Source of the DNA: a virus
Lineage: Duplodnaviria > Heunggongvirae > Uroviricota > Caudoviricetes
DNA length: 56,181 nt
Virus record (IMG/VR): IMGVR_UViG_2565956618_000007
Strand: one strand, 5' to 3'
The notes under the pieces were generated by a model. The model made no database searches, was not told where the DNA came from, and saw only the letters and a list, made by a program, of their open reading frames with translations. Shown piece by piece: positions 21,353 through 41,025 of this stretch (the stretch's first letter is position 1; each line of letters starts with the position of its first letter). A program made the position numbers and the translations under genes.

Positions 21353-21359
21353 TCAGACA

Positions 21360-21392
21360 TGAGATAAATGAAGGGGGATCCGTGAGATAAAT
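21360..21392. repeat. Direct 10-bp repeats TGAGATAAAT x2 (23-bp spacing) at the prophage end: candidate transposase-binding end repeats
   Basis: Read directly just after the terminase truncation; Mu-type ends carry repeated transposase-binding sites a few bp from the terminus; identity unverified. Confidence 0.3.
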
Positions 21393-21545: not shown

Positions 21546-21707
21546 ATGACTACTCAAAACAATAAGCATGATAGCCTGGATTACTCAGAAAAGCCCAAAA
21601 GCAAGCACATCGTGACGTTCGAGCGCGATTCCGGTAGAAAAGGAGAATCGTCTTCCTCTGCCAATAAAACCACTATGCCGGCAGCCCCTGCCCCAGGGAA
21701 AAAATAA
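21546..21707 (+). CDS. Small hydrophilic hypothetical protein
   Basis: 53-aa ORF (below ORF-track cutoff) with RBS AAAAGGA 8 nt upstream; convergent with the membrane-protein gene. Confidence 0.3.
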   Translation: MTTQNNKHDSLDYSEKPKSKHIVTFERDSGRKGESSSSANKTTMPAAPAPGKK

Positions 21708-21710
21708 ACA

Positions 21711-22343
21711 TCATTCATCGTTCGTTGCACGAACGCGCCTGATCTCCACTCTGGCAATCTGATCTGCTGGAATATAGGTTGCCAGAGCTCCCCAGTACTT
21801 ATCAACCACGCCTTTATACTCTTCCCATTCGTTACTGCCTGAAGGGCTGCTGTGCGTGACGTAAAGAACCATATCGCCTTTATTCCCCAGGGTAAACGGA
21901 CCGTTAGGCCACTCTTCAAAGTTCCCTGGCAGCCGTGACATCATACCGGAACCATCGCGAAGAATCACTCTGACCTCGGTAACGCTGAAGCCTGTTTGAT
22001 CAAACATTGCCTGCCATGCTGAGCTGGTATCGTCAGACCATGAAACATCATTATTCCACAGTAATCTGTACATCCATTTGCGACCGTACCTGCGCCACCA
22101 CGCACCGCATGTAACGGCACACAGAAGTGCTGGTGGTGTTGCCAGCCAGGCATTCAGACCTGCCCACATAACAGCCTGGTAAGCCATCATTGCTGTCAGG
22201 CCAAAAATCAGCGAAGAAAAAGTCACCTCAATGGGCTTGTGGTGATCCTTCAGTCCCACATTCGCAATAAAATACCCAATATAGCCACTGGTCAGGGTCA
22301 CCAGTGTTGCCCATGGCAGATTTAACAACGAAACGTCAAACAT
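21711..22343 (-). CDS. Membrane protein with three N-terminal TM helices and a soluble C-terminal domain; candidate moron (superinfection exclusion?)
   Basis: 210-aa product from MFDVSLLNLPWATLVTLTSGYIGYF… with RBS AGGGAGA; separated from Mor by an intrinsic terminator; last gene before the prophage end. Confidence 0.7.
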   Translation of the reverse strand: MFDVSLLNLPWATLVTLTSGYIGYFIANVGLKDHHKPIEVTFSSLIFGLTAMMAYQAVMWAGLNAWLATPPALLCAVTCGAWWRRYGRKWMYRLLWNNDVSWSDDTSSAWQAMFDQTGFSVTEVRVILRDGSGMMSRLPGNFEEWPNGPFTLGNKGDMVLYVTHSSPSGSNEWEEYKGVVDKYWGALATYIPADQIARVEIRRVRATNDE

Positions 22344-22381: not shown

Positions 22382-22411
22382 AAAAAAAGCACGGTAAGGG
22401 GTCTACCGTGC
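22382..22411 (-). terminator. Intrinsic terminator downstream of mor (minus strand)
   Basis: Stem GCACGGTA/TACCGTGC with 7-nt loop, followed on the minus strand by a run of seven U. Confidence 0.6.
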
Positions 22412-22457
22412 TTTTATACAATAAGGAGATTTTTGAAAGGACTTTAACAAGCAGGAA

Positions 22458-22856
22458 TTATCTGGATTTGTTAACGTCTTTCGTCTCCTCTGGCAGATCT
22501 TCATCAAACAACCTGCCCTGCATCCGATCCAGTTCTTCTTTTCTGACCCGCTTAACCACGCTGTAGACCCACTGAAGCGAAACACCAAACTTGCGGGCCA
22601 GTTCGTGGTGGTTGCGTCCGTTAAACTCCCTGAAGATTTCCCGGTCGCGCTGACTGACCTTCCATACCATGCCCATCGGGAAATAAACGTTTTGCCCGCC
22701 CCAGACCTGCATCATTCGGTTCGCGACGGCCTGACCAATCTGGTCGGCAATTGCGGGCTCAATATCAATAATCTCGCGAACGGTCTCAGAGGTATGCTGT
22801 GCCAGCTCCACCAGGAGTTCCGGCCCTTTACTTCGAAACTGATTCAGGTCGCTCAT
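22458..22856 (-). CDS. mor: Mor-family middle transcription activator
   Basis: 132-aa product; C-terminal …WGGQNVYFPMGMVWKVSQRDREIFREFNGRNHHELARKFGVSLQWVYSVVKRVR aligns with remembered Mu Mor. Confidence 0.85.
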   Translation of the reverse strand: MSDLNQFRSKGPELLVELAQHTSETVREIIDIEPAIADQIGQAVANRMMQVWGGQNVYFPMGMVWKVSQRDREIFREFNGRNHHELARKFGVSLQWVYSVVKRVRKEELDRMQGRLFDEDLPEETKDVNKSR

Positions 22857-23277
22857 GTTTTACTCCCGCAGCTCTGTGCTGCCACTTCTTCAGTTTCTCA
22901 ATAACACTGCTTGCCTGTTCAGTATTGAGCCAGCGCAGGGCGCTGATGCCCGTTTCCCGCTTGATCCACCGCGCTAATGCATTTTCTGAACGGTCACGAA
23001 CAATGCCGGCAGCAGCCATTTCAAGCCATAGCGCACGAATTTTCCTGGACTGCGGATGGTTATCCAGCGGTAAACCGGAGCTGGCTTTTCTGGCTGGTTT
23101 AACGCGAAAGCCTTTCTTTTTCATGGATTCCAGCACGCAGTTTAGTTGTGTGGTATCCATTCCTTTGGTTGAGGCTTTACCGGTCAGCCCCTGTAACATC
23201 TGGCGGTAGGTGTCTTCATCCATACCCAGTTCATTACGGGCAATATGGATAAGCTGTATCAGGCGTTTTTTCTGCAT
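22828..23277 (-). CDS. GemA-like (Mu gp16 family) protein
   Basis: 149-aa ORF overlapping mor by 29 nt; position and size as Mu gemA; assignment tentative. Confidence 0.55.
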   Translation of the reverse strand: MQKKRLIQLIHIARNELGMDEDTYRQMLQGLTGKASTKGMDTTQLNCVLESMKKKGFRVKPARKASSGLPLDNHPQSRKIRALWLEMAAAGIVRDRSENALARWIKRETGISALRWLNTEQASSVIEKLKKWQHRAAGVKHERPESVSK

Positions 23278-23278
23278 A

Positions 23279-23485
23279 TCATCTCCTTTTTTTCAGTCTG
23301 TCGGCAACAATGTCGGTTGCAGCTGGCAGGGTGACTGGCCAGAACAACATGACGGCGGTCATGTACAGGATGTAATGCGCGGTGTCGTAGTGCCTGCCAT
23401 AGCCCAGGGAACGATGAAGTCTTGCGCTGCATGATCCTGCGTACATATACCAGAAAAGAAAACAGACAATGGTTTCAGTAGTCAT
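23279..23485 (-). CDS. Small membrane protein
   Basis: 68-aa product from internal Met (MTTETIVCFLFWYMYAGS…) with two hydrophobic segments. Confidence 0.45.
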   Translation of the reverse strand: MTTETIVCFLFWYMYAGSCSARLHRSLGYGRHYDTAHYILYMTAVMLFWPVTLPAATDIVADRLKKRR

Positions 23486-23705
23486 TCTGAATACCTCCCC
23501 ATTCGATATGAATATTACGGGCAGCAATGACAGGGTCGTTATTCCACCATGCACCTGACATGTATTTTTCAACCTGTTCGCGTCCGGCAATAACACCAAT
23601 TGTGATCCCCGGCCTGACGTTCTTAAAAAAGGCGCGGGCAAAAAGGTATCTGGCAGATATTCGGCAGGCTTTTAATTTCCGGCTGTTACCTGATAGCGTA
23701 ATCAT
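23475..23705 (-). CDS. Hypothetical early protein
   Basis: 76-aa ORF; start overlaps the upstream stop (ATGA coupling). Confidence 0.45.
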   Translation of the reverse strand: MITLSGNSRKLKACRISARYLFARAFFKNVRPGITIGVIAGREQVEKYMSGAWWNNDPVIAARNIHIEWGGIQNDY

Positions 23706-24385
23706 CTGGCCTCCAGTTTCTGTTGTTCCTGCCCACTGACCGGGCGGTGCAGTCTGACGTTCTGCCCTTCACGAAACCCCGCATAGCGCGAGGCGTCGCC
23801 ATTGCGGCTTCTTCCCGGTTTACGCGCCCTGGTGGTTTGCGTCTGCGGGTATTTATGTTCCAGCCACTGTTGCATCAGTTCACGCTCATCATCGGTCAGG
23901 GCAAAGGACTGTATTTCACTGATAACGGCCAGTACCCAGCCTTCAGCAAACTGGTCTCCACGGCTGGTACGGGTGGCGTTTTTTATTCTTTTGTTCTGTG
24001 CGCTGATATACTGCTGACGCGCCTTTTTCAGCTGGCGGACCAGCACTTCCCAGGTGTACGCAGCCAGTGCCGCTCGTTCCCGGTTACCGTAGAACCCCAC
24101 AGACGGATGCGTGCCGGGGTGAATGATGGAGTTAACACCAAATGCCTCGCGGATGATGTTCATCAGGCCCAGCATGTAGCGCGGTGGACGGAGACTGCCT
24201 GTCGGCCAGTAATGACTGATGGTTTCATCAATATCACTCATAGCAATGTCGGAATGTGTGATGCCGTGAACATCCATCAGTTTACGGGCTCGGCGCAGTG
24301 CCAGAGCGGCCTCGTGCGGGTTGCCGGATGCGGCCAGCGCCAGCAACTTTTTCAGTTTCTCAATGTGTTTATTCTGGTCTGTCAT
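23702..24385 (-). CDS. Hypothetical early protein (DUF2786-like N-terminus)
   Basis: 227-aa product from MTDQNKHIEKLKKLLALAASGNPHEAALAL…; ATGA overlap with upstream gene. Confidence 0.6.
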   Translation of the reverse strand: MTDQNKHIEKLKKLLALAASGNPHEAALALRRARKLMDVHGITHSDIAMSDIDETISHYWPTGSLRPPRYMLGLMNIIREAFGVNSIIHPGTHPSVGFYGNRERAALAAYTWEVLVRQLKKARQQYISAQNKRIKNATRTSRGDQFAEGWVLAVISEIQSFALTDDERELMQQWLEHKYPQTQTTRARKPGRSRNGDASRYAGFREGQNVRLHRPVSGQEQQKLEAR

Positions 24386-24597
24386 TGTTCTGTATCTCCG
24401 GTATTTTTCTGCCGTTTCCATGCCCGGACAGCGTCGGACAGCTCTTTCAGGCTGTATGCTGCTTTAAGCTTTTCCCATAACCACTGTGTTGTTATGTGCA
24501 TCAGCAGGGCAGCCAGGGCTGCCCCCGCACTGAGGCATGTCGCCAGGCCAGTAAGAATCAGTGTCCATGCGGTGATTTCCCTGAGTATGTCAGCCAT
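24382..24597 (-). CDS. Small membrane protein
   Basis: 71-aa ORF with one central hydrophobic helix. Confidence 0.5.
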   Translation of the reverse strand: MADILREITAWTLILTGLATCLSAGAALAALLMHITTQWLWEKLKAAYSLKELSDAVRAWKRQKNTGDTEQ

Positions 24598-24611
24598 TGA
24601 ATGCCTCCCGG

Positions 24612-24908
24612 TTACTCGTTCGTGTAAATCACGCCCAGTCGTGCAGCCAGACGTTCCAGTTTTTTCTGTTTGTGGAAGTCAATCAGCCGGTCCATCCCCT
24701 GAAGGCGCAGTTGCTCTGTCATGATTTCCACGTCTGCCAGCTCTGCCGCGAGGTCACTTTCGCTGCCCTGTCCGTTCAGATTGCGGGCAGCACTGGCCGC
24801 CAGTTCAGCGGCCTCTTCTGTCAGTTTCAGGGCCTGTGCGTCCGGCCCGAAACGCTGCAGGGCCAGACGGTAGAGGGCGGTGCGGGTGAGTTCGGTGTTT
24901 CGTGTCAT
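24612..24908 (-). CDS. MazG-like nucleotide pyrophosphohydrolase domain protein
   Basis: 98-aa all-alpha product with EEAAEL…E…DL..ELADV acidic motifs typical of small MazG/HisE-type NTP-PPases. Confidence 0.6.
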   Translation of the reverse strand: MTRNTELTRTALYRLALQRFGPDAQALKLTEEAAELAASAARNLNGQGSESDLAAELADVEIMTEQLRLQGMDRLIDFHKQKKLERLAARLGVIYTNE

Positions 24909-24917
24909 GCCGCGCCC

Positions 24918-25190
24918 TCAGTGCTTCCGGCTGACGGTGATGTGCAGGCCGCCTTCTGCAGTGGTTTCCATCCGGTACGGCACCTCATGCTCTGCCGTGT
25001 GGGTGAGTGTGTTCATCAGTACCTGCAGGGCAGCCTCCTTTCCGTTGGTCGCCACAATGGCCTGTGTGGCCATGCTGATTAGCGCCGTCAGGACGTGCTT
25101 CACATCGGTGAGGTCGCGGCATTCACACTCGTTGACATAGTGTTCAACAAGAGTTCGGGTGCGCTGTCGTGCTTCCTGTGGGGTAATCAT
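24918..25190 (-). CDS. Hypothetical early protein
   Basis: 90-aa ORF in the early operon. Confidence 0.5.
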   Translation of the reverse strand: MITPQEARQRTRTLVEHYVNECECRDLTDVKHVLTALISMATQAIVATNGKEAALQVLMNTLTHTAEHEVPYRMETTAEGGLHITVSRKH

Positions 25191-25381
25191 TGCGCGTCCT
25201 CCCTGTCAGGGCGGGAGAATTCTATGACGGGCACGTCCGCCGAAAAATGCTGGCTGCAGTACGGGCAGACCAGGGTGACACGTACTGCAGGTATGTGATA
25301 CTTACCGGACATCACGGCGATGGCGCTGTGAAAACGCAGGGCTGTTATATCCCTCTCGCACTGAATACATTTAAATATCAT
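25187..25381 (-). CDS. Small zinc-ribbon protein
   Basis: 64-aa ORF with CxxC…CPYC motifs. Confidence 0.5.
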   Translation of the reverse strand: MIFKCIQCERDITALRFHSAIAVMSGKYHIPAVRVTLVCPYCSQHFSADVPVIEFSRPDREDAQ

Positions 25382-25478
25382 AATTTAATTCTCCTCTGTT
25401 TCCGGCGTGCAGAAGCCCGCGGCGCTGACGCCGGAATAAAAAAGAAAATGTTTTTATTAAATAATTAACGTGGTGTGT

Positions 25479-26009
25479 TTACTGCACATCCTGCTCAAAA
25501 GGAATTATTGAAAAATCCTCAATATCACTTTTTATGGTAATACCGGGAATATTTTTCACAGCCTCTTTTTCATTCAGAATGGCATCTTTATTTATTTCCT
25601 CCTTTACACGAATAAAGCGCTCAAGCCCCAGACGTCTCAGTAATTCAATAACATTATCCGCCCCGCGAATGCTGACTGACGGCGGACGGTTTCGCCACTG
25701 CACCTCGCCGGTGGTGAGGTTAGCGAACTTCACCTTCCCGTTGCCGGTCAGTTCATCACGGTGCGCCTCACACCATGTCTGGATACCGGACTGCAGTTCG
25801 GCCATGCGTTTTTTCAGGCTCTCGGTGAGCGGGGCATAACGTGCAGTGATGTCGCCAATGGTGTCATTCATTTCTGTTTCAGCCCTGACCAGTTCACGTT
25901 GCGCGTCACCAAGCAGTCTGATTCCCTCAATGACCTCTTCGCGTGTCCCCGGCACCCAGAGTGCTGCTGCGGCTTTGATACGTTTTGCCCCTTTTGTACT
26001 TTTTGCCAT
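25479..26009 (-). CDS. gam: Gam-like host-nuclease inhibitor (Mu Gam family)
   Basis: 176-aa product; …ETEMNDTIGDIT…WCEAHRDELT…PPSVSIRG…GITIKSDIEDFSIIPFEQ closely matches remembered Mu Gam. Confidence 0.9.
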   Translation of the reverse strand: MAKSTKGAKRIKAAAALWVPGTREEVIEGIRLLGDAQRELVRAETEMNDTIGDITARYAPLTESLKKRMAELQSGIQTWCEAHRDELTGNGKVKFANLTTGEVQWRNRPPSVSIRGADNVIELLRRLGLERFIRVKEEINKDAILNEKEAVKNIPGITIKSDIEDFSIIPFEQDVQ

Positions 26010-26036
26010 ATTTTATGACTCCTCCTGTTGTGCTGA

Positions 26037-26306
26037 TTACCACAAAGATTCCGGCCACACGACGCGACAGCCGTGCAGTTCGAAAACGCCCTGACGGAAA
26101 TGTCCCCTGTGGTCATGACCGGTATACAGATAACAGGCCTTTCCCTGCTCAAGCATGCGCATGCAATGCGCACTCCGGGAAACGCGGATGACAGGTTTGT
26201 TACCCCTGATGGTGATGCTTTGTACATCCGTGTTCGTCGCCTTAAGCGCCATAATGGCTGACTGCACTTTGCTGATTTGCTGGTTGATACCTGTGGTGGA
26301 TTTCAT
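26037..26306 (-). CDS. Hypothetical early protein (kil-region position)
   Basis: 89-aa ORF between B and gam. Confidence 0.5.
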   Translation of the reverse strand: MKSTTGINQQISKVQSAIMALKATNTDVQSITIRGNKPVIRVSRSAHCMRMLEQGKACYLYTGHDHRGHFRQGVFELHGCRVVWPESLW

Positions 26307-26308
26307 TA

Positions 26309-27475
26309 TTAAACCCCTTTGACAACGTCAGCGTTGACCTGTGGAACCCCGATTTCAGCGGCCAGATTCATGGCGGCTATTACCAGGTTACTGACGGCCA
26401 GCGGATACAGCAGGCTGACCATATTTTTACGATGACTTCCCGGATTGCTCAGGCGGGCACGTATGGCATCCACTGCGCTGGCGTCCATAATGTCCGTCAG
26501 TTGTTTACCGGCCCGTTGCAGTTTGAACGTCAGAAACTCTTCAAGGTTATTGTCCAGAGGCAGAAGTTCGACCACCTCACAGCGCTGAACGACTTCACGG
26601 ACTTCCATATTGCGTTCAGACAGTTTTGTCGCCAGTTCCGGCTGGCCAATCAGCACGATGGACAGCAGTTTTTTGAAACCGGACTCCAGCTCAAAAAAGC
26701 GTTTGAGGTGTTTCAGTGTCGGAATGGGCAGACTGTGGGCCTCCTCAATCACCAGAACGTGGCTGAACCCCGCCTGGCTGCTGTCTTTCAGGACGCGATG
26801 CAACTGGCGAAAGCGGGCGTCCTGACTGCGTCTGATGCTTTCCAGTGGTGCGATGGTACTGATAATGGCTTCGGCAATCGCTGCTGCCTTCAGGGTTTTC
26901 CCTTTCACATCGTTGTCTTCCATAGCGATGATGTATGGCTCGATAACAATTACCGGCGCATTCTCGCGGTTGATACGTTCAGTCAGGTCGCGGCGCAGCG
27001 TGGATTTACCCGCACCGGACTCACCGATGACGGCCATAAACCCACCATGACGGGCTGTCTGGTACAACGCCTCACGCACGTAGCGAATATCCGGGGTGGT
27101 GAACACATCATCAGAACCCTGCATGGCTTCGTCGGCGAACGGGTCACGGAAAAGACCAAACGCTTTTTTGGTTGCTGGAAATAACACCTGTTTTTTGAGT
27201 AACATATTCTCTTCCTCACTGAGGCTCGTTTTATCTGTGGTACCCGCTGTACGGGGCGTGGCCGCGCCCTGTACAGCATCAAAACTCTTCGTTGTATCAA
27301 TCCCCTGACTTTCCAGCCAGGACGCAAGACGCCGGCGCACTTCTCCGGGGCTGGTGCGGGGCCACGCGTTATGATTCACAATCTGGGCCAGCGTGGCCTC
27401 AGAAACATCGACAGCTCTCGCCACCACCGCCTGTGGAATACGGGCCTCTTTCAGTTGCTGCTTCAGTACCAGCAT
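26309..27475 (-). CDS. Mu B-like transposition ATPase (AAA+)
   Basis: Start at MLVLKQQLK with RBS GAGGAGGG; N-terminal HTH, Walker A VIGESGAGKST, Walker B-like VLVIEEAH; directly downstream of the transposase. Confidence 0.85.
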   Translation of the reverse strand: MLVLKQQLKEARIPQAVVARAVDVSEATLAQIVNHNAWPRTSPGEVRRRLASWLESQGIDTTKSFDAVQGAATPRTAGTTDKTSLSEEENMLLKKQVLFPATKKAFGLFRDPFADEAMQGSDDVFTTPDIRYVREALYQTARHGGFMAVIGESGAGKSTLRRDLTERINRENAPVIVIEPYIIAMEDNDVKGKTLKAAAIAEAIISTIAPLESIRRSQDARFRQLHRVLKDSSQAGFSHVLVIEEAHSLPIPTLKHLKRFFELESGFKKLLSIVLIGQPELATKLSERNMEVREVVQRCEVVELLPLDNNLEEFLTFKLQRAGKQLTDIMDASAVDAIRARLSNPGSHRKNMVSLLYPLAVSNLVIAAMNLAAEIGVPQVNADVVKGV

Positions 27476-27485
27476 GTTTCCCTCC

Positions 27486-29255
27486 TCAGTTGCCGTTAAC
27501 AATGCTGATAACACTGCTGCTGGCCGGTGTGGTCAGCGTGGCCATGACTTCATCCAGTGCGGCTTCCGGTACGCCGTCCGGGTACTGTGCCGTTAACTGG
27601 CGGTAATGTTCCGGCGTCCAGGTAAGGCCGTCGGCGCTGAACTTATCGCGCAGGGCTTTCGCGGCCTCCACATGAGTCATGGGACGTTGTTCAGTGCGCG
27701 GCCCGCGTACGTCAGAGGCCTGACCACGCTTCGGCATATAGGCCGGAAGTGTGGTGTCGTCGATATGTTTATACGGGTCAAGCCGCCCGCCGAACGGCAG
27801 CGCCTTCGCCTTGCGTGCGGCGGCTGCATCTGCGGCGTTGTCTGTACCGGTAACCAGCGCTTCAGTTTCTTTTGCCGCCATCTGTGCCGGGGTTTCCGGC
27901 AGGGCTTTGTAACTTTCGCCAAATACCGCCGCGCCTTCAGCAAAGCCAAACTCGTTCTTTCTGACCTCTTCGACCAGGAAGAACGTCTCGTGGCCGTCCT
28001 CACCGGTCAGAACCACCTGTGCCACATCGCTGCGCCATGGGTTACGGGTAATCATCAGTTTTTCACCAACCAGTACGCCCGGTACCGTTGATACGTCAAA
28101 TTCAGTGCCCCGGAACGAGACACGAAGTTTTGGCGTGACTTTGCGGAGTTCTGGTGCCGCCACAGCCAGTTCACGACATACCTCAACGGAAGGCGCTTTT
28201 TTCAGCTGCTCAGCAGTAATCTTCAGCCAGATATCCGTGCGGGTTTTACCGTGGCGGCTGTGAACAGCCGTGGCGTTAAAGTGGCTGCGCCATTTCGCGG
28301 CCAGCGCGTTGAGTTCTTCCAGACTGTGAACCGGCCGGAACTTCAGACCCGGCTCCAGCTTGCGTTCGATAATGTCCCGCGCCTTTTCCACCTGTCCGGT
28401 GGCGCGGGCGTTATGCGGCTTGTGCGCTATCAGGTCAATGCCCAGTGAGCGGCACATGTTTTTCGTCATACCCGCGGTGTTTGCCGAGCCGGGGTCGAGA
28501 TAGAGTATTTTTGGCACGCCGTGCAGCACGTCTGCGCCGCCACGCTCCTGCATGGCGTTGATAAGCACAGAACACAGGTTCTCACCGGATTCCGCACCCG
28601 TCACATACTCAACGTAAATCCAGCCGCTGGCATGGTCGGTAATCTCATAACTCCACACGCGGTCACTGGCGATACGGGCAAGGTTAGCGGGCTTGTTCTT
28701 GTAGAATTTCGCGCTGTCCATCACCTGCAGCCCTTTGTGTCCATTGCTCAGGTAGTAAAGCGTGCAGAGCGAGGCATCAATCTGCCAGACGTGATTGGGA
28801 TGCAGACTGGCCACTTCGGTATGCGGCGCAGGGGCATCCAGTTGTTCCGGGTGCAGGCCATAGTTACGCAGGGCACGGCTGATGGCATCTTCGGACAACG
28901 GGAAAAACTCACCGGTGGTTTCATCTGTTCTGCCTGCGGAGATAAAGCCGTTAGCCCGCAGGGTTTCCACTGCATCTGCGATGGAATAGAGACGCTTACC
29001 GTTCTTGCGGGTGGCCTCACGCAGTGTGGCAGATATCAGCGCGGCTTCGTCGCGGGTCAGGGCGCTGCGCCCGGCATCGGCGCGTTTTTTGCGTTTATCA
29101 GTCACAGAGACCTCCTTCAGCCTGCGCAGCAGAGTGGCGCGGGACATGCCAAGTTCAGCACAGGCAGCGTCGTATATTGCACCGCGTTTACCATGCCCCG
29201 CGTCACGTGCCGCGCGGGCGACATAAACCAGTCGTTCAGTCAGGGCAGCATTCAT
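27486..29255 (-). CDS. Mu A-like DDE transposase
   Basis: 589-aa product with N-terminal DNA-binding region and rve-type core (…HVWQIDAS…LYLDPGSAN… and a downstream E). Confidence 0.9.
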   Translation of the reverse strand: MNAALTERLVYVARAARDAGHGKRGAIYDAACAELGMSRATLLRRLKEVSVTDKRKKRADAGRSALTRDEAALISATLREATRKNGKRLYSIADAVETLRANGFISAGRTDETTGEFFPLSEDAISRALRNYGLHPEQLDAPAPHTEVASLHPNHVWQIDASLCTLYYLSNGHKGLQVMDSAKFYKNKPANLARIASDRVWSYEITDHASGWIYVEYVTGAESGENLCSVLINAMQERGGADVLHGVPKILYLDPGSANTAGMTKNMCRSLGIDLIAHKPHNARATGQVEKARDIIERKLEPGLKFRPVHSLEELNALAAKWRSHFNATAVHSRHGKTRTDIWLKITAEQLKKAPSVEVCRELAVAAPELRKVTPKLRVSFRGTEFDVSTVPGVLVGEKLMITRNPWRSDVAQVVLTGEDGHETFFLVEEVRKNEFGFAEGAAVFGESYKALPETPAQMAAKETEALVTGTDNAADAAAARKAKALPFGGRLDPYKHIDDTTLPAYMPKRGQASDVRGPRTEQRPMTHVEAAKALRDKFSADGLTWTPEHYRQLTAQYPDGVPEAALDEVMATLTTPASSSVISIVNGN

Positions 29256-29258
29256 TGG

Positions 29259-30170
29259 TTATGCCTCCAGCCCGTTAATCTGTGGCGTCGGCTCAGTCAG
29301 CCATGAAGGCGCGACATCGCCTGTTGGCTCGTCCGGCAGGTCAAATGTGGAGCGCAGGCTACGCGCTGTGCTTTCCAGTTGACAGACCAGGCCTGCCATG
29401 AAGTCTCTGGGGGTATCAATCATGTTTTCAGCACAATATGCGCACAGTGTCTCAAAAGCGCTGGACAGTCGAACGGCGATGGCAGATTCCGCCTCAACCG
29501 CTAATGCTGTCACTTCCGCCCGCAGCTTCTTAACCTCCTCATCAGGCTCAGGCAGCTGAATACGGGATTTCTTTTCCAGTCTGGTAGAGAGAGAATCAAT
29601 TTTTTCATTTTTATCGGCGAGTACGCGCTGTTGTGCTGCGTTGGTTTCGCGCGCTTCGCGCAGGGCCTGGCGAAGTTCGCGTACTGACATGCGATCAACG
29701 TCGTCAAGCGTCAGGCCGGCAACTGTGCCGCCGTCGGCCAGTTCGGCAAGCTCTTCGTCGTCTTCTGTCATTAATTCGAAAAGTTTGGCTTTTCCCAAAT
29801 GTGCCAACGTTGGCACATTTGGTTTCAGCGCCGGGGATAAGTATTTTGTCGATGCTTGCATCATTCTCACAGATGTCCGGTATGCCAGCCCCAACTCACT
29901 TTCAAGAATCTTTATAAACTCCCCGTGTGGTTCATTTTCCTTAAGGATTATCAGCCGCTTACCTGCCTCCAGCATGGCCTCAGCGCTCTGTGCCATATAA
30001 AAGCGTGCCTCATGGACAACACGATCGCGCTCATAAGGCAGACCATCGCCGAACTGTTGCATGATTTCCATGCGATGCTGTGTCATGGCGTTTAGACTGA
30101 CATTGAGATCATCCGACAGCGGTACCTCGACGTTCAGTTCAGTGCTAACCGGTGATTTGGTGCGTCCCAT
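29259..30170 (-). CDS. Hypothetical early protein (DUF3102-like)
   Basis: 303-aa ORF between ner-proximal regulators and the transposase. Confidence 0.55.
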   Translation of the reverse strand: MGRTKSPVSTELNVEVPLSDDLNVSLNAMTQHRMEIMQQFGDGLPYERDRVVHEARFYMAQSAEAMLEAGKRLIILKENEPHGEFIKILESELGLAYRTSVRMMQASTKYLSPALKPNVPTLAHLGKAKLFELMTEDDEELAELADGGTVAGLTLDDVDRMSVRELRQALREARETNAAQQRVLADKNEKIDSLSTRLEKKSRIQLPEPDEEVKKLRAEVTALAVEAESAIAVRLSSAFETLCAYCAENMIDTPRDFMAGLVCQLESTARSLRSTFDLPDEPTGDVAPSWLTEPTPQINGLEA

Positions 30171-30180
30171 TGATTACTCC

Positions 30181-30489
30181 TTACAAACGACTACCTGAAA
30201 TAACACGTTGGTTGATTTCGTTAATGCGATCCTGTGCACGTGCCATCTCGTTACTGTGGGCCATGGCGATCTGCAGCAACTGGATGCCTGGTGCGAAACG
30301 CCCGTTTTCTAGTTTCAGAGCCAACCCTTCTTCAATGAGCGTGTTAAGTGCCCGGTTGATGTTTGCCGGTGATTCGTGCAGTGCAACCGCTAGTTCCCCG
30401 TTAGAAACACCGTTCAAAGCGTGGCCACGTAAGGCCTTAAGAACGCGCAAAATACGGATACCTGAGCTTGATGTATTTGGTTTATTCAT
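30181..30489 (-). CDS. Winged-helix DNA-binding protein
   Basis: 102-aa ORF; GVSNGELAVALHESPANINRALNTLIEEGLA resembles IclR/MarR-type wHTH. Confidence 0.55.
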   Translation of the reverse strand: MNKPNTSSSGIRILRVLKALRGHALNGVSNGELAVALHESPANINRALNTLIEEGLALKLENGRFAPGIQLLQIAMAHSNEMARAQDRINEINQRVISGSRL

Positions 30490-30716
30490 GACGCCTCCTT
30501 AAGGATACCGGGGGTAACTTCTTTACCTATTGCAACCGATAGATCTCGCAAAATCCGATAAGTCAAACGACCGCGAGGTAGTTCACTTTTACCAGCCCAG
30601 CGACTGACTGCCTGGGTGACTGTTCGTGGTTCATAGCCCGCGTTAAGCGCGAACTGGCGCAAGCTACTGCCTCGTTCAACCAGCCGTGCCCGAACTTGTT
30701 GTTTGTTCATATGCAC
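30486..30716 (-). CDS. ner: Ner-like DNA-binding protein (Ner/Nlp family)
   Basis: 76-aa product, first gene of the leftward operon, divergent from the repressor; …SLRQFALNAGYEPRTVTQAVSRW… follows the Ner HTH pattern. Confidence 0.65.
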   Translation of the reverse strand: MHMNKQQVRARLVERGSSLRQFALNAGYEPRTVTQAVSRWAGKSELPRGRLTYRILRDLSVAIGKEVTPGILKEAS

Positions 30717-30798
30717 CGTGTTCCTGTTAGGTTATGATGTACTCTATTGGGTCTATTGTACACACCCAAATGAGTGTGTCAAATTGAGATATGTTCAA
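30717..30798. promoter_or_regulatory. Divergent promoter/operator region between ner and repressor; near-palindrome CACACCC-N4-GAGTGTG
   Basis: 82-bp intergenic region between divergent regulator genes; imperfect inverted repeat at about 30763-30780; promoters not mapped. Confidence 0.45.
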
Positions 30799-31206
30799 AT
30801 GAGTACAAAAGAGAGATTGCGTGAAGTGATGGATGCTAATGGCATGACAATAAAGGCATTATCTGACTTATCAAAAATTCCATATCGCTCACTTCAAAAC
30901 TATTTGCGTGGAGAGAGAGAACCAAACGCAGAGGCTCTTGTTGCGCTAAGTACCCATTTGGGTGTATCAATCGATTGGCTACTTACCGGTAAAGAACATA
31001 TTCCATCTAAAGAAATTGTTGCTGTACCAACACAACATCAATTCAGCCCGTCAGACCTTAAAATGCTTGAACTTCTAAACCAGTTAGATCCTGAGGTTCG
31101 GCGAGATCTCATGCGAGGCGCTGAAGAAAAACAGCGTGTGATTGAGATGGAAAAACAACTGAAGGAATTATCCGCAACGATTGAGCGGTTAAAAAATGTG
31201 GGTTAA
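30799..31206 (+). CDS. XRE-family HTH repressor of the Mu-like prophage (c-repressor analogue)
   Basis: 135-aa product from MSTKERLREVMDANGMTIKALSDLSKIPYRSLQNYLRG…; HTH_XRE N-terminus, coiled-coil C-terminus; divergent from ner. Confidence 0.75.
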   Translation: MSTKERLREVMDANGMTIKALSDLSKIPYRSLQNYLRGEREPNAEALVALSTHLGVSIDWLLTGKEHIPSKEIVAVPTQHQFSPSDLKMLELLNQLDPEVRRDLMRGAEEKQRVIEMEKQLKELSATIERLKNVG

Positions 31207-31276
31207 TGTGTTCCTAACGAGAACATATAGCAGAAATTATTTGCCATTAAGCAATAAAAAATAAGGTGGATAGCCA

Positions 31277-32284
31277 ATGTCTGAGCAGACCATTGAAGTT
31301 AAACACGTTGTAGTTCACATTTTAGACAAACAACAAAATGGAGACGCTTCTGAGAGATTGAGTCCTGAAGAAGGTCTAGTTACTGAAGCCTCTCAGCGCC
31401 TTATAAACGATATTTGTGCAAAATATGCAGGACGCACAGGTAAAGGTTATGGCTATTTTGAAGGCGATACGGATAACTATCCTATGGAACGAATGGCTGG
31501 GGACTTTCTCGAAGGTGTTGATGATTTCTACCAAAGTTCCTGCCGAATGATGCATCACCTGACGGAACGTTCTCAGCGAGAAAACATGGCTACTGGTGGT
31601 TATGTTCTTTTTGCAAATATCGTGATAGGACACAATGAACACCTGTTGATAGCTATTGTAAGCGCTACCATTGGGTCCACTGTCACAGATGATTTTAACA
31701 TCCAAGATAGTACCTATCTTGATATTGCTAAGCTGCGTATGGCTGGGCGCATTGACTTAACCGCGTGGGAAAGTGGCGCAGAGCGCTATATCAGTTTTCT
31801 TAAGGGGCAAGGTAATGTTTCAAACTATTTTAAACAGTTCCTAGGCTGTAATGATGTCTTAATCGCCAAACGAGAGTCTGAAAAGTTACGTGACGTTTTA
31901 AAAGCATTTGCGGCAGAGAAAGGACTTGACGGCGCTGAAAAAGATGCATTTCTTAAGAGTGCGTTTGAACACTTACATGCACTAAGTAAGGCTGGTGAAC
32001 CACTTAGTCTTGAAACCCTTGTTAATGCCATTTGGCCCCAGGCTCCCGAGGAGTTATCTGGTAAACTTGCTGCTGAAGAGTTGGAGTTATCGGATGGCTT
32101 CGTTCCTGATGGTCGAGTCATTCGGGCTCTGGTATCTTTTAAAGGCAAGTCTAAATATTGGGAACTTAAGTTTGACCGGGAAGGGAAAACTGAAGGCTAT
32201 ATTGATTATGATCCGGAAACAAATATTATCACCCTACGTAATGTACCTGAAGAATTTAGGGAAATGTGGATGACTGAGGTTTAA
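31277..32284 (+). CDS. NdpA/YejK-family nucleoid-associated-protein homologue; first gene of repressor-linked accessory module
   Basis: 335-aa product; GGYVLFANIVIGHNEHLLIAIV and RIDLTAWESGAERYISFLKGQGNVSNYFKQFLGCNDVL align with remembered E. coli YejK; AT-richer than flanks. Confidence 0.85.
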   Translation: MSEQTIEVKHVVVHILDKQQNGDASERLSPEEGLVTEASQRLINDICAKYAGRTGKGYGYFEGDTDNYPMERMAGDFLEGVDDFYQSSCRMMHHLTERSQRENMATGGYVLFANIVIGHNEHLLIAIVSATIGSTVTDDFNIQDSTYLDIAKLRMAGRIDLTAWESGAERYISFLKGQGNVSNYFKQFLGCNDVLIAKRESEKLRDVLKAFAAEKGLDGAEKDAFLKSAFEHLHALSKAGEPLSLETLVNAIWPQAPEELSGKLAAEELELSDGFVPDGRVIRALVSFKGKSKYWELKFDREGKTEGYIDYDPETNIITLRNVPEEFREMWMTEV

Positions 32285-32286
32285 TC

Positions 32287-33492
32287 GTGGCGATTTCATT
32301 TGAGATGCTGACAGCTCTGTATCGTCGTATGGAATTCCAAGAGGGGTTTCGTGTCGGTTCGCTGTTGCTCTTAGATCAGTCCGATTGTGATCTGGTTGAT
32401 ACTTTGCTTGATGATCCTCGTGAATATGGTCTTTCTATTGATACAGGCACTATCGCTCCAGGTAACACGATCATCCTACGTGTGACGTCACCACGGAGTG
32501 GACTGGGACTTGTGTTTTCCACCCATGAAAAATTGCTAAATGCTCCAAAGCATCAGTGCCTTGAGCCAGCTAATTACTTCATCCTAGAAACAAAATTTCG
32601 TAATGATGATGAAGATATCCCCGTTTTCATCAGCAACTACCGGAAGATTCTCGAGTTCGTTAACCTGCTAAAAGAGGCCGCGGCCTACTTTGATAACTCA
32701 ACTTGTCAGTTAGTTTTTCTGAAAAAAGAAGTTATCAAGCTATTACCGCACTTCGCTGCAGAAAATGTACAAAATTTGCAAAGGGAGTATCTTGATAACC
32801 TTATAGCTTGTTTCAATGATGATACCCATAAGGATCAGAAGCTAGATATTCTGATTGAAAGTATTCAAGCAGTTAGTGATGGAATTGATTCACCTCTAGT
32901 ATTCGCTTATTTACTGGACAATATTCAGCGTCTGCATGAAAAGTTTCTGAAAGGGTATCGTATCTACTCTTCTGGATTCTCTTATGACAAAGTAATGGAT
33001 CAACTGCGTGCTGCAAAAGTCGAAGAAATGGGTAAAATCCACAAAGCGTTTTCAGATATCCAGAACCATATACTTGGCATTCCTGTTGCCTCTGTTATCG
33101 TAGCTACCCAATTCAAAGTGGCTACGAAATGGTCAGGCCAAGGGATAACAAACACAATAATTCTTCTGGGATGCATTTTTGCTGCAACGTTAATCTGGCT
33201 GGCACTTTCGAACCAGATGCAATCTATAAAGGCCTTAGGCGAAGAAATTGAATACAAAGAAAAACAGATTAATAAGGAATATTCCTTCATTAAAGATGAC
33301 GTGGCTGGTGTATTTAGCAGTATTTCTGCGCGACTAGACACGCAGAAACGTACGTTCTGGATTATACGTGGTGTTCTAGTTATGGGAATTATTACCGCTA
33401 TCACTGTTTATTTTTGGTACACAAAACCAGCCCTTGACTTCATGCAGTACTTGATTCACTGCATGAAGTCTTACTATTCGGTCAAAAGTTGA
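32287..33492 (+). CDS. Protein with soluble N-terminal domain and two C-terminal TM helices; second gene of accessory module (candidate membrane effector)
   Basis: GTG start 2 nt after the upstream stop (alternative ATG at 32305); hydrophobic segments ITNTIILLGCIFAATLIWLALS and TFWIIRGVLVMGIITAITVYFWY; no family recognised. Confidence 0.8.
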   Translation: MAISFEMLTALYRRMEFQEGFRVGSLLLLDQSDCDLVDTLLDDPREYGLSIDTGTIAPGNTIILRVTSPRSGLGLVFSTHEKLLNAPKHQCLEPANYFILETKFRNDDEDIPVFISNYRKILEFVNLLKEAAAYFDNSTCQLVFLKKEVIKLLPHFAAENVQNLQREYLDNLIACFNDDTHKDQKLDILIESIQAVSDGIDSPLVFAYLLDNIQRLHEKFLKGYRIYSSGFSYDKVMDQLRAAKVEEMGKIHKAFSDIQNHILGIPVASVIVATQFKVATKWSGQGITNTIILLGCIFAATLIWLALSNQMQSIKALGEEIEYKEKQINKEYSFIKDDVAGVFSSISARLDTQKRTFWIIRGVLVMGIITAITVYFWYTKPALDFMQYLIHCMKSYYSVKS

Positions 33493-34252
33493 GGATAATG
33501 AGTTCCTTCTTGCGACTGGATTTGCCAGTGATCTTGAGGTTGTAGCTGATATCAACCGACTGAATATTTAGACCGTTGAATGCCTGCCGCATTTCCGGGA
33601 TATCGTTCACCGATATAATCATCTTCCCTTTGATCCTGCGTGCTAAATCTGCCATATGATCATAATTTTCTAGTCCGAACTCCACACCATAACCTTCCGT
33701 TCCCCAGTATGGAGGGTCACAGTAGAACAACGTATGCGGGCGATCATATCGTTCTATGCACTGTTGCCAGTCCATGTGTTCTATGACCGTTCTGGAAAGC
33801 CGCAGGTGTGCCGCTGACAGTTCTTCTTCAATACGCAGCAGGTTGAAGCGTGGCGGGGATATGGTGGAGGTACCAAAGCTGTGCTCCGCCACCTTGCCCC
33901 CAAACGCCTGCTTCTGAAGGTAGTAGAACCGTGCTGCACGCTGGATATCCGTCAGTGTTTCTTCCGGGGTGATCTGCAGCCATTTGTAGATCTGCCGGCT
34001 GACCAGCGCCCATTTGAACTGGCGTACAAATTCTTCCAGATGATGTTTTACCACCCGATACAGGTTCACCAGCTCACCGTTGATATCATTAATGACTTCG
34101 ATCTTGCCGGGTACCTTAAGAAAATAGAGCGCTGCTGCCCCACAAAACGGCTCCACATAACATTCATGCGCCGGAAACAGCGGCAGGATGTGTTTTGCAA
34201 GGCGGCGTTTGCCACCAATCCATGGAACGATGGGTAATGTCTGCATTTTCAT
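33482..34252 (-). CDS. dam: DNA N6-adenine methyltransferase (Dam-like)
   Basis: 256-aa product with FCGAAALYF (SAM-binding motif I) and DPPY catalytic motif; convergent with the accessory module, overlapping by 11 nt. Confidence 0.85.
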   Translation of the reverse strand: MKMQTLPIVPWIGGKRRLAKHILPLFPAHECYVEPFCGAAALYFLKVPGKIEVINDINGELVNLYRVVKHHLEEFVRQFKWALVSRQIYKWLQITPEETLTDIQRAARFYYLQKQAFGGKVAEHSFGTSTISPPRFNLLRIEEELSAAHLRLSRTVIEHMDWQQCIERYDRPHTLFYCDPPYWGTEGYGVEFGLENYDHMADLARRIKGKMIISVNDIPEMRQAFNGLNIQSVDISYNLKITGKSSRKKELIILNF

Positions 34253-34499
34253 AATCTGTAAGCCTTTTACAATTATAAAAAATATGGCAGGCTAGTCTGG
34301 TCTCGCGAGACTGACTGAACCTTGGTCGGCTCACAGCGCATTCCTGTGGGGCGATGGCCAGCCCGGTGTTCGGGTACCGGGCTGGTCGTTCTTTCAAAGC
34401 CATCATGCAGTGCACGTTTACATCTTCACTATTAACGCTGTTTAAAATCCGTATCCCGCCACATTTGTGATGCTGTCTCCACCAAACGAGGAGACACAC

Positions 34500-34850
34500 A
34501 TGAAAAACCTGAAAAAATTCATTCCCCCTGTTAAAAAACCTCGCCTCAGCGGCTGGCTGCTGACCTCAGTGCTGTTGCTGGGCATCATCGCTCTGGTCTC
34601 GCCACAGCAGTTGCCTGTTGTGATCTACAAGCTGGCACTCATCACGCTGGCAGCAGTGCTGGGGTACTGGCTTGACCGTTCGCTCTTCCCCAAAGCCCGT
34701 CCCGGTCAGTACCTGAAACATGAAGACAGGCTGATGGCTGAAGGGCGTTTCCCTGTGCAGACCGGCCTTCACCTTGTATTTTCTGCTGCGTTAATCCGCC
34801 GTGCACTGATTGTTGCAGCTGTCTGTCTGGCTGTTGCGATGGGGCTTTAA
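34500..34850 (+). CDS. Holin-like membrane protein (three TM segments), first gene of lysis cassette
   Basis: 116-aa product from MKNLKKFIPP with RBS GAGGAG; three hydrophobic helices; immediately upstream of the transglycosylase. Confidence 0.6.
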   Translation: MKNLKKFIPPVKKPRLSGWLLTSVLLLGIIALVSPQQLPVVIYKLALITLAAVLGYWLDRSLFPKARPGQYLKHEDRLMAEGRFPVQTGLHLVFSAALIRRALIVAAVCLAVAMGL

Positions 34851-34852
34851 TC

Positions 34853-41023: not shown

Positions 41024-41025
41024 CA

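What the first reader, a model, noticed from the sequence alone, without database searches (positions are those of the whole stretch)
22458..34499. Bidirectional layout of a Mu-like genome: early genes leftward, late genes rightward from a central immunity region
Canonical Mu has ner-A-B-gam-mor and all late genes on one strand. Here the Mu-homologous early genes run on the minus strand (30716 down to 22458) and the lysis, head and tail genes on the plus strand (34500 onward), diverging from the repressor region. I recall a similar layout for BcepMu-type phages, but this element's early proteins look closer to Mu itself, so it may be a mosaic.
Basis: partly seen in the sequence, partly recalled or inferred. 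Interest (0 to 1): 0.4.

Follow-up and report, generated by a model that had tools for sequence, protein, structure and literature searches.

The report
BcepMu-type transposable prophage, ordinary divergent layout
The two-armed gene layout is real, but it is the standard, already published organisation of BcepMu/B3-type transposable phages, a family present in about one in nine complete E. coli genomes, and not an unusual Mu mosaic or an assembly error.

Summary
From an 88-bp control region (30711-30798) an early operon runs leftward (Ner-like gene, transposase, ATPase, gam, gemA, mor; 30710 down to 22458). The lysis, head and tail genes run rightward from 34500.

The interpretation does not hold. 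The transposase is 69% identical to BcepMu gp09 and 57% to Pseudomonas phage B3, with no detectable match to MuA. The ATPase partner is an ExeA/AAA_22 protein, 59% identical to BcepMu gp08, not MuB. Mor and GemA are closer to BcepMu than to Mu. Gam is absent from BcepMu and B3, and is 66-67% identical to Pseudomonas D3112-type phages against 61.5% to Mu.

BcepMu, B3, Klebsiella phage KP12 and Escherichia phage PhiKM (filed as Bcepmuvirus) all share this layout, which the literature describes. The transposition module occurs in 628 of 5426 complete E. coli genomes, so this is not an artefact.

The prophage starts at 21350, inside another prophage's terminase gene, and its right end lies beyond the window.

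The "immunity region" is a variable slot. It holds a cI-like repressor, a low-GC two-gene cassette (YejK-like protein plus membrane protein) that resembles recently reported anti-phage systems, and a dam methylase.

Low interest; already known.

The parts
21350..21392 (+). Left terminus of the prophage. It begins with TG (TGATCAGACA) and carries two GAGATAAAT repeats 23 bp apart, the presumed transposase binding sites.
   Evidence: The host match (an uninterrupted lambdoid terminase gene in other strains) ends at 21349. Identity to the N61 copy starts at 21344-21350. The same architecture is found at both ends of BcepMu and B3 and at the N61 right end. The motif occurs only here within the prophage part of the window.
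21546..22343 (.). Left-end cargo of unknown function: a 53-aa gene (+, 21546-21707) and a 210-aa gene (-, 21711-22343).
   Evidence: Matches phrog_15726 and phrog_12870, with no Pfam or PADLOC hit. Homology to most family members begins only at about 22498, so this segment is variable.
22385..22415 (-). Intrinsic terminator closing the leftward early operon, about 43 bp after the mor stop codon.
   Evidence: 13-bp stem followed by a T-run on the minus strand. Folding energy -19.1 kcal/mol, z-score -7.2.
22458..23277 (-). mor (22458-22856) and gemA (22828-23277), the last genes of the early operon.
   Evidence: Pfam Mor 1e-43 and GemA 1e-40. Identity 56% and 43% to BcepMu gp01 and gp02 against 31% and 36% to Mu.
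23279..26306 (-). Small early genes, including DUF2786/DUF7168, a MazG-like gene and gam (25479-26009).
   Evidence: Gam matches Pfam Phage_Mu_Gam at 1e-40 and is 66-67% identical to D3112-type phages against 61.5% to Mu.
26309..27475 (-). Transposition ATPase of ExeA/AAA_22 type, the functional analogue of MuB.
   Evidence: Pfam AAA_22 3.6e-20. 59% identical to BcepMu gp08 and 55% to B3 ORF11, with no Mu hit. Matches phrog_296, DNA transposition protein.
27486..29255 (-). DDE (rve) transposase of BcepMu/B3 type.
   Evidence: Only the Pfam rve domain is found, with no Mu-specific domains. 68.5% identical to BcepMu and 57% to B3. None of the 69 phage records with a hit is Mu, D108 or SfMu. No MuA among PDB hits.
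29259..30710 (-). DUF3102 protein, a small IclR-type HTH protein and the Ner-like/BcepMu-gp16-like first gene of the early operon.
   Evidence: TIGR04111 BcepMu_gp16 at E 7e-7, below the curated cut-off.
30711..30798 (.). Divergent control region. It holds a leftward early promoter (TTGACA-16-TACAAT, 30782 to 30755) overlapped by operator-like inverted half-sites ACTCTATTGGGT / ACCCAAATGAGT.
   Evidence: Promoter scan gives 11 of 12 matches. Repeats. Function is inferred.
30799..31206 (+). cI/DicA-like HTH repressor of 135 aa, with no peptidase domain.
   Evidence: Pfam HTH_3 3e-12 and Phage_CI_repr 1.5e-6. Repressor PHROGs. Same position as BcepMu gp17 and B3 ORF18.
31277..33492 (+). Two-gene low-GC (41.5%) cassette: a YejK/NA37-like protein (31277-32284) and a 401-aa protein with an acidic soluble N-domain and three C-terminal TM segments (32287-33492). 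Candidate anti-phage system.
   Evidence: NA37 1e-80. TM segments and charge. Sub-threshold hits of both proteins to NCBIfam DS1_1/DS1_2 anti-phage models. The pair is conserved in moron slots of unrelated prophages. Architecture matches type II PANGU.
33482..34252 (-). Dam-type N6-adenine DNA methyltransferase.
   Evidence: Pfam MethyltransfD12 7e-28. 66% identical to B3 Dam and 88% to PhiKM.
34353..34391 (+). Strong hairpin followed by a T-rich tail. Inferred insulator or terminator between the rightward repressor/cargo transcript and the late genes.
   Evidence: Perfect 10-bp arms. Folding energy -32.8 kcal/mol, z-score -4.4. Role is inferred only.
34433..34447 (+). Conserved box TAACGCTGTTTAAAA, 53 bp upstream of the holin. 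Inferred Mor-dependent late promoter element.
   Evidence: Conserved in PhiKM, KP12 and BcepMu. The pattern occurs only twice in the window and only twice in BcepMu, at equivalent sites.
41627..41641 (+). Second copy of the late box (TAAAGCAGATTAAAA), 58 bp upstream of the protease/scaffold gene.
   Evidence: BcepMu has its second copy upstream of gene 32, the protease.
34500..56181 (+). Late region: holin, SLT endolysin, spanin, terminase, portal, Mu F/G-like proteins, protease/scaffold, capsid and a P2-like contractile tail. It runs off the window.
   Evidence: Collinear with BcepMu genes 21-51 at 31-76% identity (apart from TerL, 24%), for example sheath 76% and portal 60%.

Best explanation
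This is the left 34.8 kb of a roughly 38-kb BcepMu/B3-type transposable (Mu-like) prophage of E. coli. The divergent layout is the normal, ancestral organisation of that phage group.

How it most likely works:
1. In the lysogen, the cI-like repressor (30799-31206) is transcribed rightward, probably together with the downstream two-gene cassette. It shuts the strong leftward early promoter in the 88-bp control region.
2. On induction, the early operon is transcribed leftward: Ner/gp16-like regulator, rve transposase, AAA+ ATPase, gam, gemA, mor. It stops at an intrinsic terminator just before the left-end cargo.
3. The transposase acts on TG...CA ends that carry paired 9-bp repeats, and replicative transposition leaves a 6-bp target duplication.
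4. Mor, a diffusible activator, turns on rightward late promoters marked by a conserved box upstream of the holin and of the protease/scaffold gene.

Because early and late expression are coupled in trans by Mor and not by read-through, the orientation of the early block relative to the late block is functionally free.

Shown here: gene content, orientation, homologies, ends, target duplication and prevalence. Inferred: promoter, operator, terminator and late-box functions, and co-transcription of the cassette with the repressor.
For: - Gene order and strands.
- Domains: only rve in the transposase, AAA_22 in the ATPase, plus Mor, GemA, Gam; holin, SLT, Dam.
- Protein matrix: every backbone protein from mor to gpI with a BcepMu counterpart has its best or only match in BcepMu or B3. 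The transposase and ATPase have no Mu match.
- 69 phage records carry the transposase (Burkholderia, Pseudomonas B3-type, PhiKM, KP12), none of them Mu.
- BcepMu, B3, KP12 and PhiKM show the same two-arm map.
- (Lavigne et al. 2009, PMC2771037): BcepMu genes 1-13 lie on the bottom strand and 17-52 on the top strand, with lysogeny control at the interface, a Tn552/IS1604-type transposase unrelated to MuA, and terminal CA dinucleotides.
- Ends and 6-bp duplication GATAGC.
- Promoter, terminator and late boxes.
- Prevalence: 628 of 5426 complete E. coli genomes.
- Two different insertion sites for sequence-identical copies.
Against: - Nucleotide similarity to BcepMu itself is only patchy, about 65-70%, so membership of the genus in the strict ICTV sense is not shown. 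GenBank files the 95%-identical PhiKM as Bcepmuvirus.
- Unlike BcepMu, this lineage has Gam and, in the identical N61 copy, a Gin-like invertase with inverted tail-fibre genes. BcepMu is described as lacking an inversion system.
- All regulatory sites are consensus or conservation inferences.
- The right end and the target duplication of the window's own copy cannot be seen.
Confidence: 0.93

Rival explanations
1. A hybrid element: a Mu-proper early region (ner-A-B-gam-mor) recombined in inverted orientation onto a BcepMu-type late region.
For: Mor, GemA and Gam belong to Mu-named Pfam families. Gam is 61.5% identical to Mu Gam and absent from BcepMu and B3. [quoted passage not shown]
Against: The transposase and ATPase have no Mu match but are 69% and 59% identical to BcepMu. 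Mor and GemA are closer to BcepMu. The first early gene hits the BcepMu_gp16 model. The ends are BcepMu/B3-type. The target duplication is 6 bp, whereas Mu makes 5 bp (established knowledge). Gam is nearer to D3112-type phages than to Mu.
Confidence: 0.03
2. An assembly error or inversion artefact created the apparent divergence at about 30.7 kb and 34.4 kb.
For: None found. The GC drop at 30.8-33.5 kb could look suspicious on its own.
Against: The whole 13 kb is found in single aligned pieces at 99.2-100% identity in several independent complete genomes (H6-H12; 18 records cover at least 80%). The same orientation is seen in the phage isolates PhiKM and KP12 and in BcepMu and B3. The low-GC segment is a discrete mobile cassette also seen in other prophages.
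Confidence: 0.01
3. A defective prophage remnant whose layout carries no functional meaning.
For: The right end is not in the window. The element sits inside another prophage.
Against: All backbone ORFs are intact and collinear with BcepMu. The identical N61 copy has both ends and a 6-bp duplication. Copies that are 100% identical lie at different sites in different strains. Close relatives have been isolated as phages, PhiKM and KP12.
Confidence: 0.05

Closest known systems
Burkholderia phage BcepMu (Bcepmuvirus; Summer et al. 2004, as summarised in Lavigne et al. 2009, PMC2771037)
   Same: - Two divergent gene clusters with the repressor and gp16-like genes at the interface.
- An rve transposase (69% identical), an ExeA-type ATPase (59%), and mor and gemA at the left tip.
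- TG...CA ends with paired repeats at the same positions.
- Holin, SLT and Rz lysis genes, Mu-like head genes and a P2-like tail (sheath 76% identical).
- The same late-promoter box at the two equivalent positions.
   Different: - Enterobacterial host and lower GC.
- Has Gam, Dam and DUF2786. It lacks BcepMu gp03-05 (SSB/HU/DUF3164) and the gp53 acyltransferase.
- Different immunity genes and different cargo between the repressor and the holin.
- The N61 copy has a Gin-type invertase with inverted tail-fibre genes, which BcepMu lacks.
- The terminase large subunit is only 24% identical.
Escherichia phage PhiKM (PQ738613), Klebsiella phage KP12 clone 2 (OM835952) and Escherichia phage Phi06_2974 B
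   Same: 95% (PhiKM) and about 86% (KP12 and Phi06_2974 B) nucleotide identity across most of the early and late arms, with the same layout. KP12 also carries the invertase.
   Different: The segment 30490-33540 (Ner-like, cI-like, NA37 cassette) and the TerS/TerL genes are replaced by unrelated sequence in PhiKM. The left-end cargo also differs.
Pseudomonas phage B3 (Beetrevirus; AF232233)
   Same: The same divergent layout. Transposase 57% identical and ATPase 55%. DUF3102 (52%) and the small HTH protein (56%) are closer than in BcepMu. Dam is 66% identical. The end architecture is similar.
   Different: B3 is a siphovirus with an unrelated tail. Its Dam lies in the tail region. It has no Gam.
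Escherichia phage Mu (Muvirus)
   Same: Lifestyle of replicative transposition with random insertion. Shares the Mor, GemA and Gam families, Mu F/G-like and portal homologues, and the early gene order regulator-transposase-ATPase...gam...gemA-mor in the direction of transcription. The N61 copy has a Gin-like invertase.
   Different: In Mu all of these genes are on one strand, with c at the left tip. MuA and MuB are unrelated in sequence to the proteins here. Mu makes a 5-bp duplication against 6 bp here. Mu has two activators (Mor, then C) against one here. The tail and lysis genes differ.
Type II PANGU (bioRxiv 10.64898/2026.04.06.716658) and NCBIfam DS1_1/DS1_2 anti-phage pair. This applies to the cassette at 31277-33492 only.
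   Same: A YejK-like nucleoid-associated protein gene immediately followed by a gene for a protein with an acidic soluble N-domain and a C-terminal TM domain. Both proteins hit the two DS1 models.
   Different: The hits are far below the curated equivalog cut-offs (64 against 330 bits, and 76 against 315 bits). Sequence identity to the tested PANGU-Ecu could not be checked. No activity data exist for this copy.

Membership tests
BcepMu-like transposable phages (Bcepmuvirus sensu lato) | Two gene clusters on opposite strands: early/transposition genes on the bottom strand and lysis/head/tail genes on the top strand, with lysogeny control at the interface. | tested here: met
   compared with 11 and 26.
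BcepMu-like transposable phages (Bcepmuvirus sensu lato) | Transposase of the rve/Tn552-IS1604 type, unrelated to MuA. | tested here: met
   Only rve in Pfam. 68.5% identical to BcepMu gp09 with no Mu hit. No MuA in the PDB search.
BcepMu-like transposable phages (Bcepmuvirus sensu lato) | ExeA/AAA_22-type transposition ATPase directly downstream of the transposase. | tested here: met
   (59% identical to gp08).
BcepMu-like transposable phages (Bcepmuvirus sensu lato) | TG...CA termini with paired terminal repeats, and insertion at varied sites with a short target duplication. | tested here: met
   Left end in the window; both ends and the 6-bp GATAGC duplication in the identical N61 copy; two different insertion sites. 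The right end of the window's own copy was not seen.
BcepMu-like transposable phages (Bcepmuvirus sensu lato) | P2-like contractile tail module and Mu-like head module. | tested here: met
   sheath 76%, tube 67%, homologues of gpU/X/D/V/W/J/I, portal 60%, F-like 60%.
BcepMu-like transposable phages (Bcepmuvirus sensu lato) | Genus-level nucleotide similarity to BcepMu (current ICTV practice of about 70% over the genome; from my own knowledge). | tested here: inconclusive
   Only patchy 65-70% blastn segments to BcepMu. GenBank nevertheless files the 95%-identical PhiKM under Bcepmuvirus.
BcepMu-like transposable phages (Bcepmuvirus sensu lato) | No tail-fibre inversion system (as described for BcepMu). 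| tested here: not met
   The identical N61 copy and KP12 carry a DNA invertase next to inverted tail-fibre genes, 76% identical to Mu Gin. This is a descriptive trait of BcepMu and not a defining one.
Muvirus (Mu, D108, SfMu) | MuA transposase (Mu-specific DNA-binding and C-terminal domains) and MuB. | tested here: not met
Muvirus (Mu, D108, SfMu) | Early and late genes co-oriented, with the repressor at the left tip. | tested here: not met
   One search compared.
Muvirus (Mu, D108, SfMu) | 5-bp target site duplication (established knowledge). | tested here: not met
   6-bp duplication in the N61 copy.
Type II PANGU / DS1-like NAP defence (cassette 31277-33492) | Bicistronic operon: a YejK-like NAP plus a partner with an acidic N-domain and a C-terminal TM domain. 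| tested here: met
   The genes are 2 bp apart. The pairing is conserved in four unrelated contexts.
Type II PANGU / DS1-like NAP defence (cassette 31277-33492) | Sequence membership of the curated DS1_1/DS1_2 equivalog models. | tested here: not met
   E 1.4e-17 and 3e-21, but 64 and 76 bits against cut-offs of 330 and 315. It is a distant relative, not an equivalog.
Type II PANGU / DS1-like NAP defence (cassette 31277-33492) | Protection against phage infection requiring both genes. | not testable with these tools
   Experimental. Reported for an E. coli UPEC operon in the preprint, whose sequence I could not compare.

The most novel reading that the evidence does not exclude
The slot between the repressor and the late operon of this very common E. 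coli transposable-prophage family may act as an exchangeable defence-gene bay. It would be expressed from the lysogenic promoter (a RexAB-like arrangement) and insulated from the lysis genes by the 34353-34391 hairpin. Here it would carry a divergent NAP-sensor/membrane-effector (type II PANGU-like) system. In addition, a single conserved box (TAAMGCNNWTTAAAA) may define the Mor-dependent late promoters across BcepMu-type phages from Burkholderia to E. coli.
Probability: 0.45. Interest if true: 0.35.

Novelty: already known. Interest (0 to 1): 0.15.

Why it matters
For the scan, this means the flagged oddity can be closed. A divergent early/late layout in a Mu-like element points to the BcepMu/B3 lineage of transposable phages and does not signal rearrangement.

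There are three modest practical points:
- This family sits in about 12% of complete E. coli genomes.
- It inserts almost anywhere, here knocking out another prophage's terminase.
- Its central and left-end slots carry exchangeable cargo, including a probable anti-phage cassette of a type described only in 2026.

Tried and rejected
- **Rfam scan.** A scan of the prophage part of the window at gathering thresholds found nothing.
- **PADLOC.** It gave only a weak KwaA hit for the 401-aa protein and nothing for the NA37 protein. I considered a Kiwa relationship and dropped it: a literature search linking KwaB to nucleoid-associated proteins found nothing relevant, and the NCBIfam DS1 pair explains both genes better.
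- **Solved structures.** A PDB sequence search with the transposase and the ATPase gave no informative relatives. No structure prediction was run, because the family assignment was already unambiguous.
- **Internal transposase sites.** I looked for internal copies of the terminal repeat motif, such as a Mu-style enhancer near the operator. There are none in the prophage part of the window.
- **Source strain.** I tried to find the window's own strain in order to read its right end. No complete E. coli genome in the collection contains this exact insertion junction, so the right end and target duplication were taken from the sequence-identical copy in strain N61.
- **ORF 34164-34499 (-).** It has no support as a gene.


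Full report
**1. Observation**

The ORF map and the PGAP annotation of a 100%-identical copy in E. coli N61 agree.
- An uninterrupted block of 16 minus-strand genes runs from 30710 down to 22458.
- A plus-strand block runs from the holin at 34500 to the end of the window.
- Between them lie a cI-like HTH gene (+, 30799-31206), two plus-strand genes (31277-32284 and 32287-33492) and a dam methylase (-, 33482-34252).

**2. What the element is**

*Domains.* Pfam identifies Mor, GemA and Gam. The 589-aa transposase contains only an rve core, with none of the Mu-specific transposase domains. Its partner is an AAA_22/ExeA-type ATPase, not MuB.

*Transposase relatives.* A translated search of 50,697 phage records gave 69 hits.
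- PhiKM 98.6% and Phi06_2974 B 93.5%.
- The Burkholderia BcepMu group 68-69%.
- Pseudomonas B3-type phages 50-57%.
- No Mu, D108 or SfMu.

*Gene-by-gene comparison with Mu, BcepMu, B3 and PhiKM.*

| Protein | BcepMu | B3 | Mu |
|---|---|---|---|
| Transposase | 69% | 57% | none |
| ATPase | 59% | 55% | none |
| Mor | 56% | 29% | 31% |
| GemA | 43% | 37% | 36% |
| DUF3102 protein | 39% | 52% | none |
| Small HTH protein | 35% | 56% | none |

- The late genes from the holin to gpI are collinear with BcepMu genes 21-51 at 31-76% identity.
- The first early gene hits NCBIfam "BcepMu_gp16 family".
- Gam is absent from BcepMu and B3. It is 66-67% identical to Pseudomonas D3112/DMS3-type phages and 61.5% to Mu, so it is a shared transposable-phage module and not a Mu-specific import.

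*Closest records.* The nearest nucleotide relative among phage records, PhiKM (95% identity over 71% of the query), is filed in GenBank under Bcepmuvirus.

**3. The layout is the known one**

The annotated maps of BcepMu, B3, KP12 clone 2 and PhiKM all show the same arrangement. Mor sits at the left tip, the early genes point leftward, a Ner/gp16-like gene and a cI-like gene are back to back, and then lysis, head and tail genes point rightward.

Lavigne et al. 2009 (PMC2771037) describe BcepMu in these terms:
[quoted passage not shown] - The transposase is a distant Tn552-IS1604 family member unrelated to Mu TnpA.
- The genome has terminal CA dinucleotides.

Mu itself has everything from ner to mom on one strand, except c, gp15 and the alternative G-segment genes.

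**4. Ends and insertion**

- *Left junction.* The window matches an uninterrupted terminase-large-subunit gene of a lambdoid prophage in many strains up to 21349. It matches the N61 copy of the Mu-like prophage from 21344-21350 onward. The left end is therefore 21350: TGATCAGACA-TGAGATAAATG-N11-GTGAGATAAATA.
- *N61 copy.* In N61 the same prophage interrupts a cysteine-hydrolase gene. Its right end, read inward, is TGATGCGCCGC-GCGATAAATG-N11-GTGCGATAAATG. The flanks carry a 6-bp direct repeat, GATAGC.
- *Comparison with other phages.* BcepMu and B3 have the same arrangement: TG, then two related repeats at about positions 12 and 35 at each end. The Mu left end does not share this arrangement.
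- *Size.* The prophage is about 38 kb, so its right 3.2 kb lies beyond the window.
- *Mobility.* Two sequence-identical copies at different loci point to recent transposition or infection.

**5. Not an artefact, and common**

The 13-kb query spanning both junctions aligns in a single piece at 99.2-100% identity in several independent complete genomes (H6-H12), and 18 records cover at least 80% of it. The transposase-ATPase segment is present at 80% coverage or more in 628 of 5426 complete E. coli genomes, mostly at 95-99% identity.

**6. How it most likely works**

Steps marked "inferred" rest on consensus scans or conservation only.
1. The 88-bp gap 30711-30798 holds a near-consensus leftward promoter (TTGACA-16-TACAAT, 11 of 12 matches). 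It is overlapped by inverted half-sites ACTCTATTGGGT / ACCCAAATGAGT, with a third copy at the cI-like start. These are inferred operators.
2. A strong intrinsic terminator follows mor on the minus strand (22415 to 22385). This inferred terminator defines the end of the early operon before the left-end cargo.
3. Upstream of the holin, a box TAACGCTGTTTAAAA is conserved in PhiKM, KP12 and even BcepMu.
4. The pattern TAAMGCNNWTTAAAA occurs exactly twice in the window: at 34433, 53 bp before the holin, and at 41627, 58 bp before the protease/scaffold gene. It also occurs exactly twice in BcepMu, before gene 21 (holin) and gene 32 (protease), against a chance expectation of 0.02.
5. I infer that these boxes mark Mor-dependent late promoters, comparable to Plys and PI of Mu (established knowledge).
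6. Because a diffusible activator couples early to late expression, the relative orientation of the two blocks is not constrained. This makes the divergent arrangement unremarkable mechanistically.
7. A -32.8 kcal/mol hairpin with a T-rich tail at 34353-34391 lies between the rightward repressor/cargo genes and the late genes. It may insulate the late genes in the lysogen. This is inferred and was not called by the terminator scan.

**7. The "central immunity region" is a variable cargo slot**

- Only 19 genomes carry the whole 30490-33540 segment, against about 630 with the family. PhiKM has unrelated sequence there.
- The segment is low in GC: 41.5%, against 54-56% for the two arms.
- It encodes a YejK/NA37-like protein (Pfam 1e-80).
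- Two bases downstream begins a 401-aa protein with an acidic N-domain (pI 5.0) and three C-terminal hydrophobic segments.
- The same gene pair sits between antiterminator Q and the holin in lambdoid prophages of Morganella and Citrobacter, next to an Mrr-like gene in Paraburkholderia, and in Shewanella.
- Both proteins hit, below the curated cut-offs, the two NCBIfam models of an anti-phage pair, DS1_1 and DS1_2.
- The architecture matches "type II PANGU" (NAP sensor plus TM effector) in a 2026 preprint that validated an E. coli UPEC operon. DefensePredictor also lists a YejK-domain defence protein.

I regard the cassette as a probable member of that recently described kind. Its activity is untested.

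**8. Real mosaicism, for the record**

- Gam, as described in section 2.
[quoted passage not shown] BcepMu is described as lacking an inversion system.
- TerS and TerL (36864-38725) are only 48% and 25% identical to those of PhiKM, although the flanks are 96-98% identical at the nucleotide level.
- The left-end cargo at 21546-22343 is variable.

None of this touches the transposition and regulatory core.

**9. Verdict**

The artefact explanation is excluded. The feature is the textbook organisation of a known phage group in a very common E. coli prophage. It is already known and of low interest.

Noticed in passing
window 31277-33492: A low-GC two-gene cassette directly downstream of the repressor: a YejK/NA37-like protein and a 401-aa protein with an acidic N-domain and three TM segments. 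The pair is conserved in moron slots of unrelated prophages. Both proteins give sub-threshold hits to the NCBIfam DS1_1/DS1_2 anti-phage models, and the architecture matches type II PANGU. Only 19 of 5426 E. coli genomes have it in this prophage family.
   Followed up: partly
window 21029-21352 (junction at 21349/21350): The Mu-like prophage is inserted inside the terminase large-subunit gene of a resident lambdoid prophage, a gene that is uninterrupted in ATCC 25922 and many other strains. The truncated ORF ends on the TGA supplied by the Mu-like terminus. This prophage-in-prophage insertion probably disables the resident phage.
   Followed up: partly
L004 4096-7465 (E. coli N61, right end of the identical prophage; outside the window): A Gin-like DNA invertase, 76% identical to Mu Gin, lies next to oppositely oriented tail-fibre and tail-fibre-assembly genes. 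This suggests a G-segment-like host-range switch, which BcepMu lacks. KP12 has one too.
   Followed up: partly
window 34433-34447 and 41627-41641; L003 (BcepMu) 11486-11500 and 18813-18827: A conserved box TAAMGCNNWTTAAAA occurs exactly twice in each genome, upstream of the holin and of the protease/scaffold gene. It is a candidate Mor-dependent late-promoter element shared from Burkholderia to E. coli phages.
   Followed up: partly
window 36858-38661: The small and large terminase genes are replaced relative to PhiKM (TerL 25% amino-acid identity, closest to B3 at 32%), although both flanks are 96-98% identical at the nucleotide level. This is a clean module swap.
   Followed up: no
window 21546-22343: The left-end cargo lies between the terminus and the early-operon terminator: a 53-aa (+) and a 210-aa (-) protein matching phrog_15726 and phrog_12870, of unknown function. 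Homology to most family members starts only at about 22498, so this is a second variable slot.
   Followed up: no
window 34353-34391: A very stable hairpin (-32.8 kcal/mol, z-score -4.4) with a T-rich tail on the plus strand, between dam and the holin. It is shared with PhiKM up to 34396, and PhiKM has an extra 1.4 kb inserted right after it. It may be an insulator terminator or a recombination boundary.
   Followed up: partly
window 14000-20000: A markedly low-GC stretch (36-43%) lies in the flanking lambdoid prophage and host region to the left of the element. Its content was not examined.
   Followed up: no
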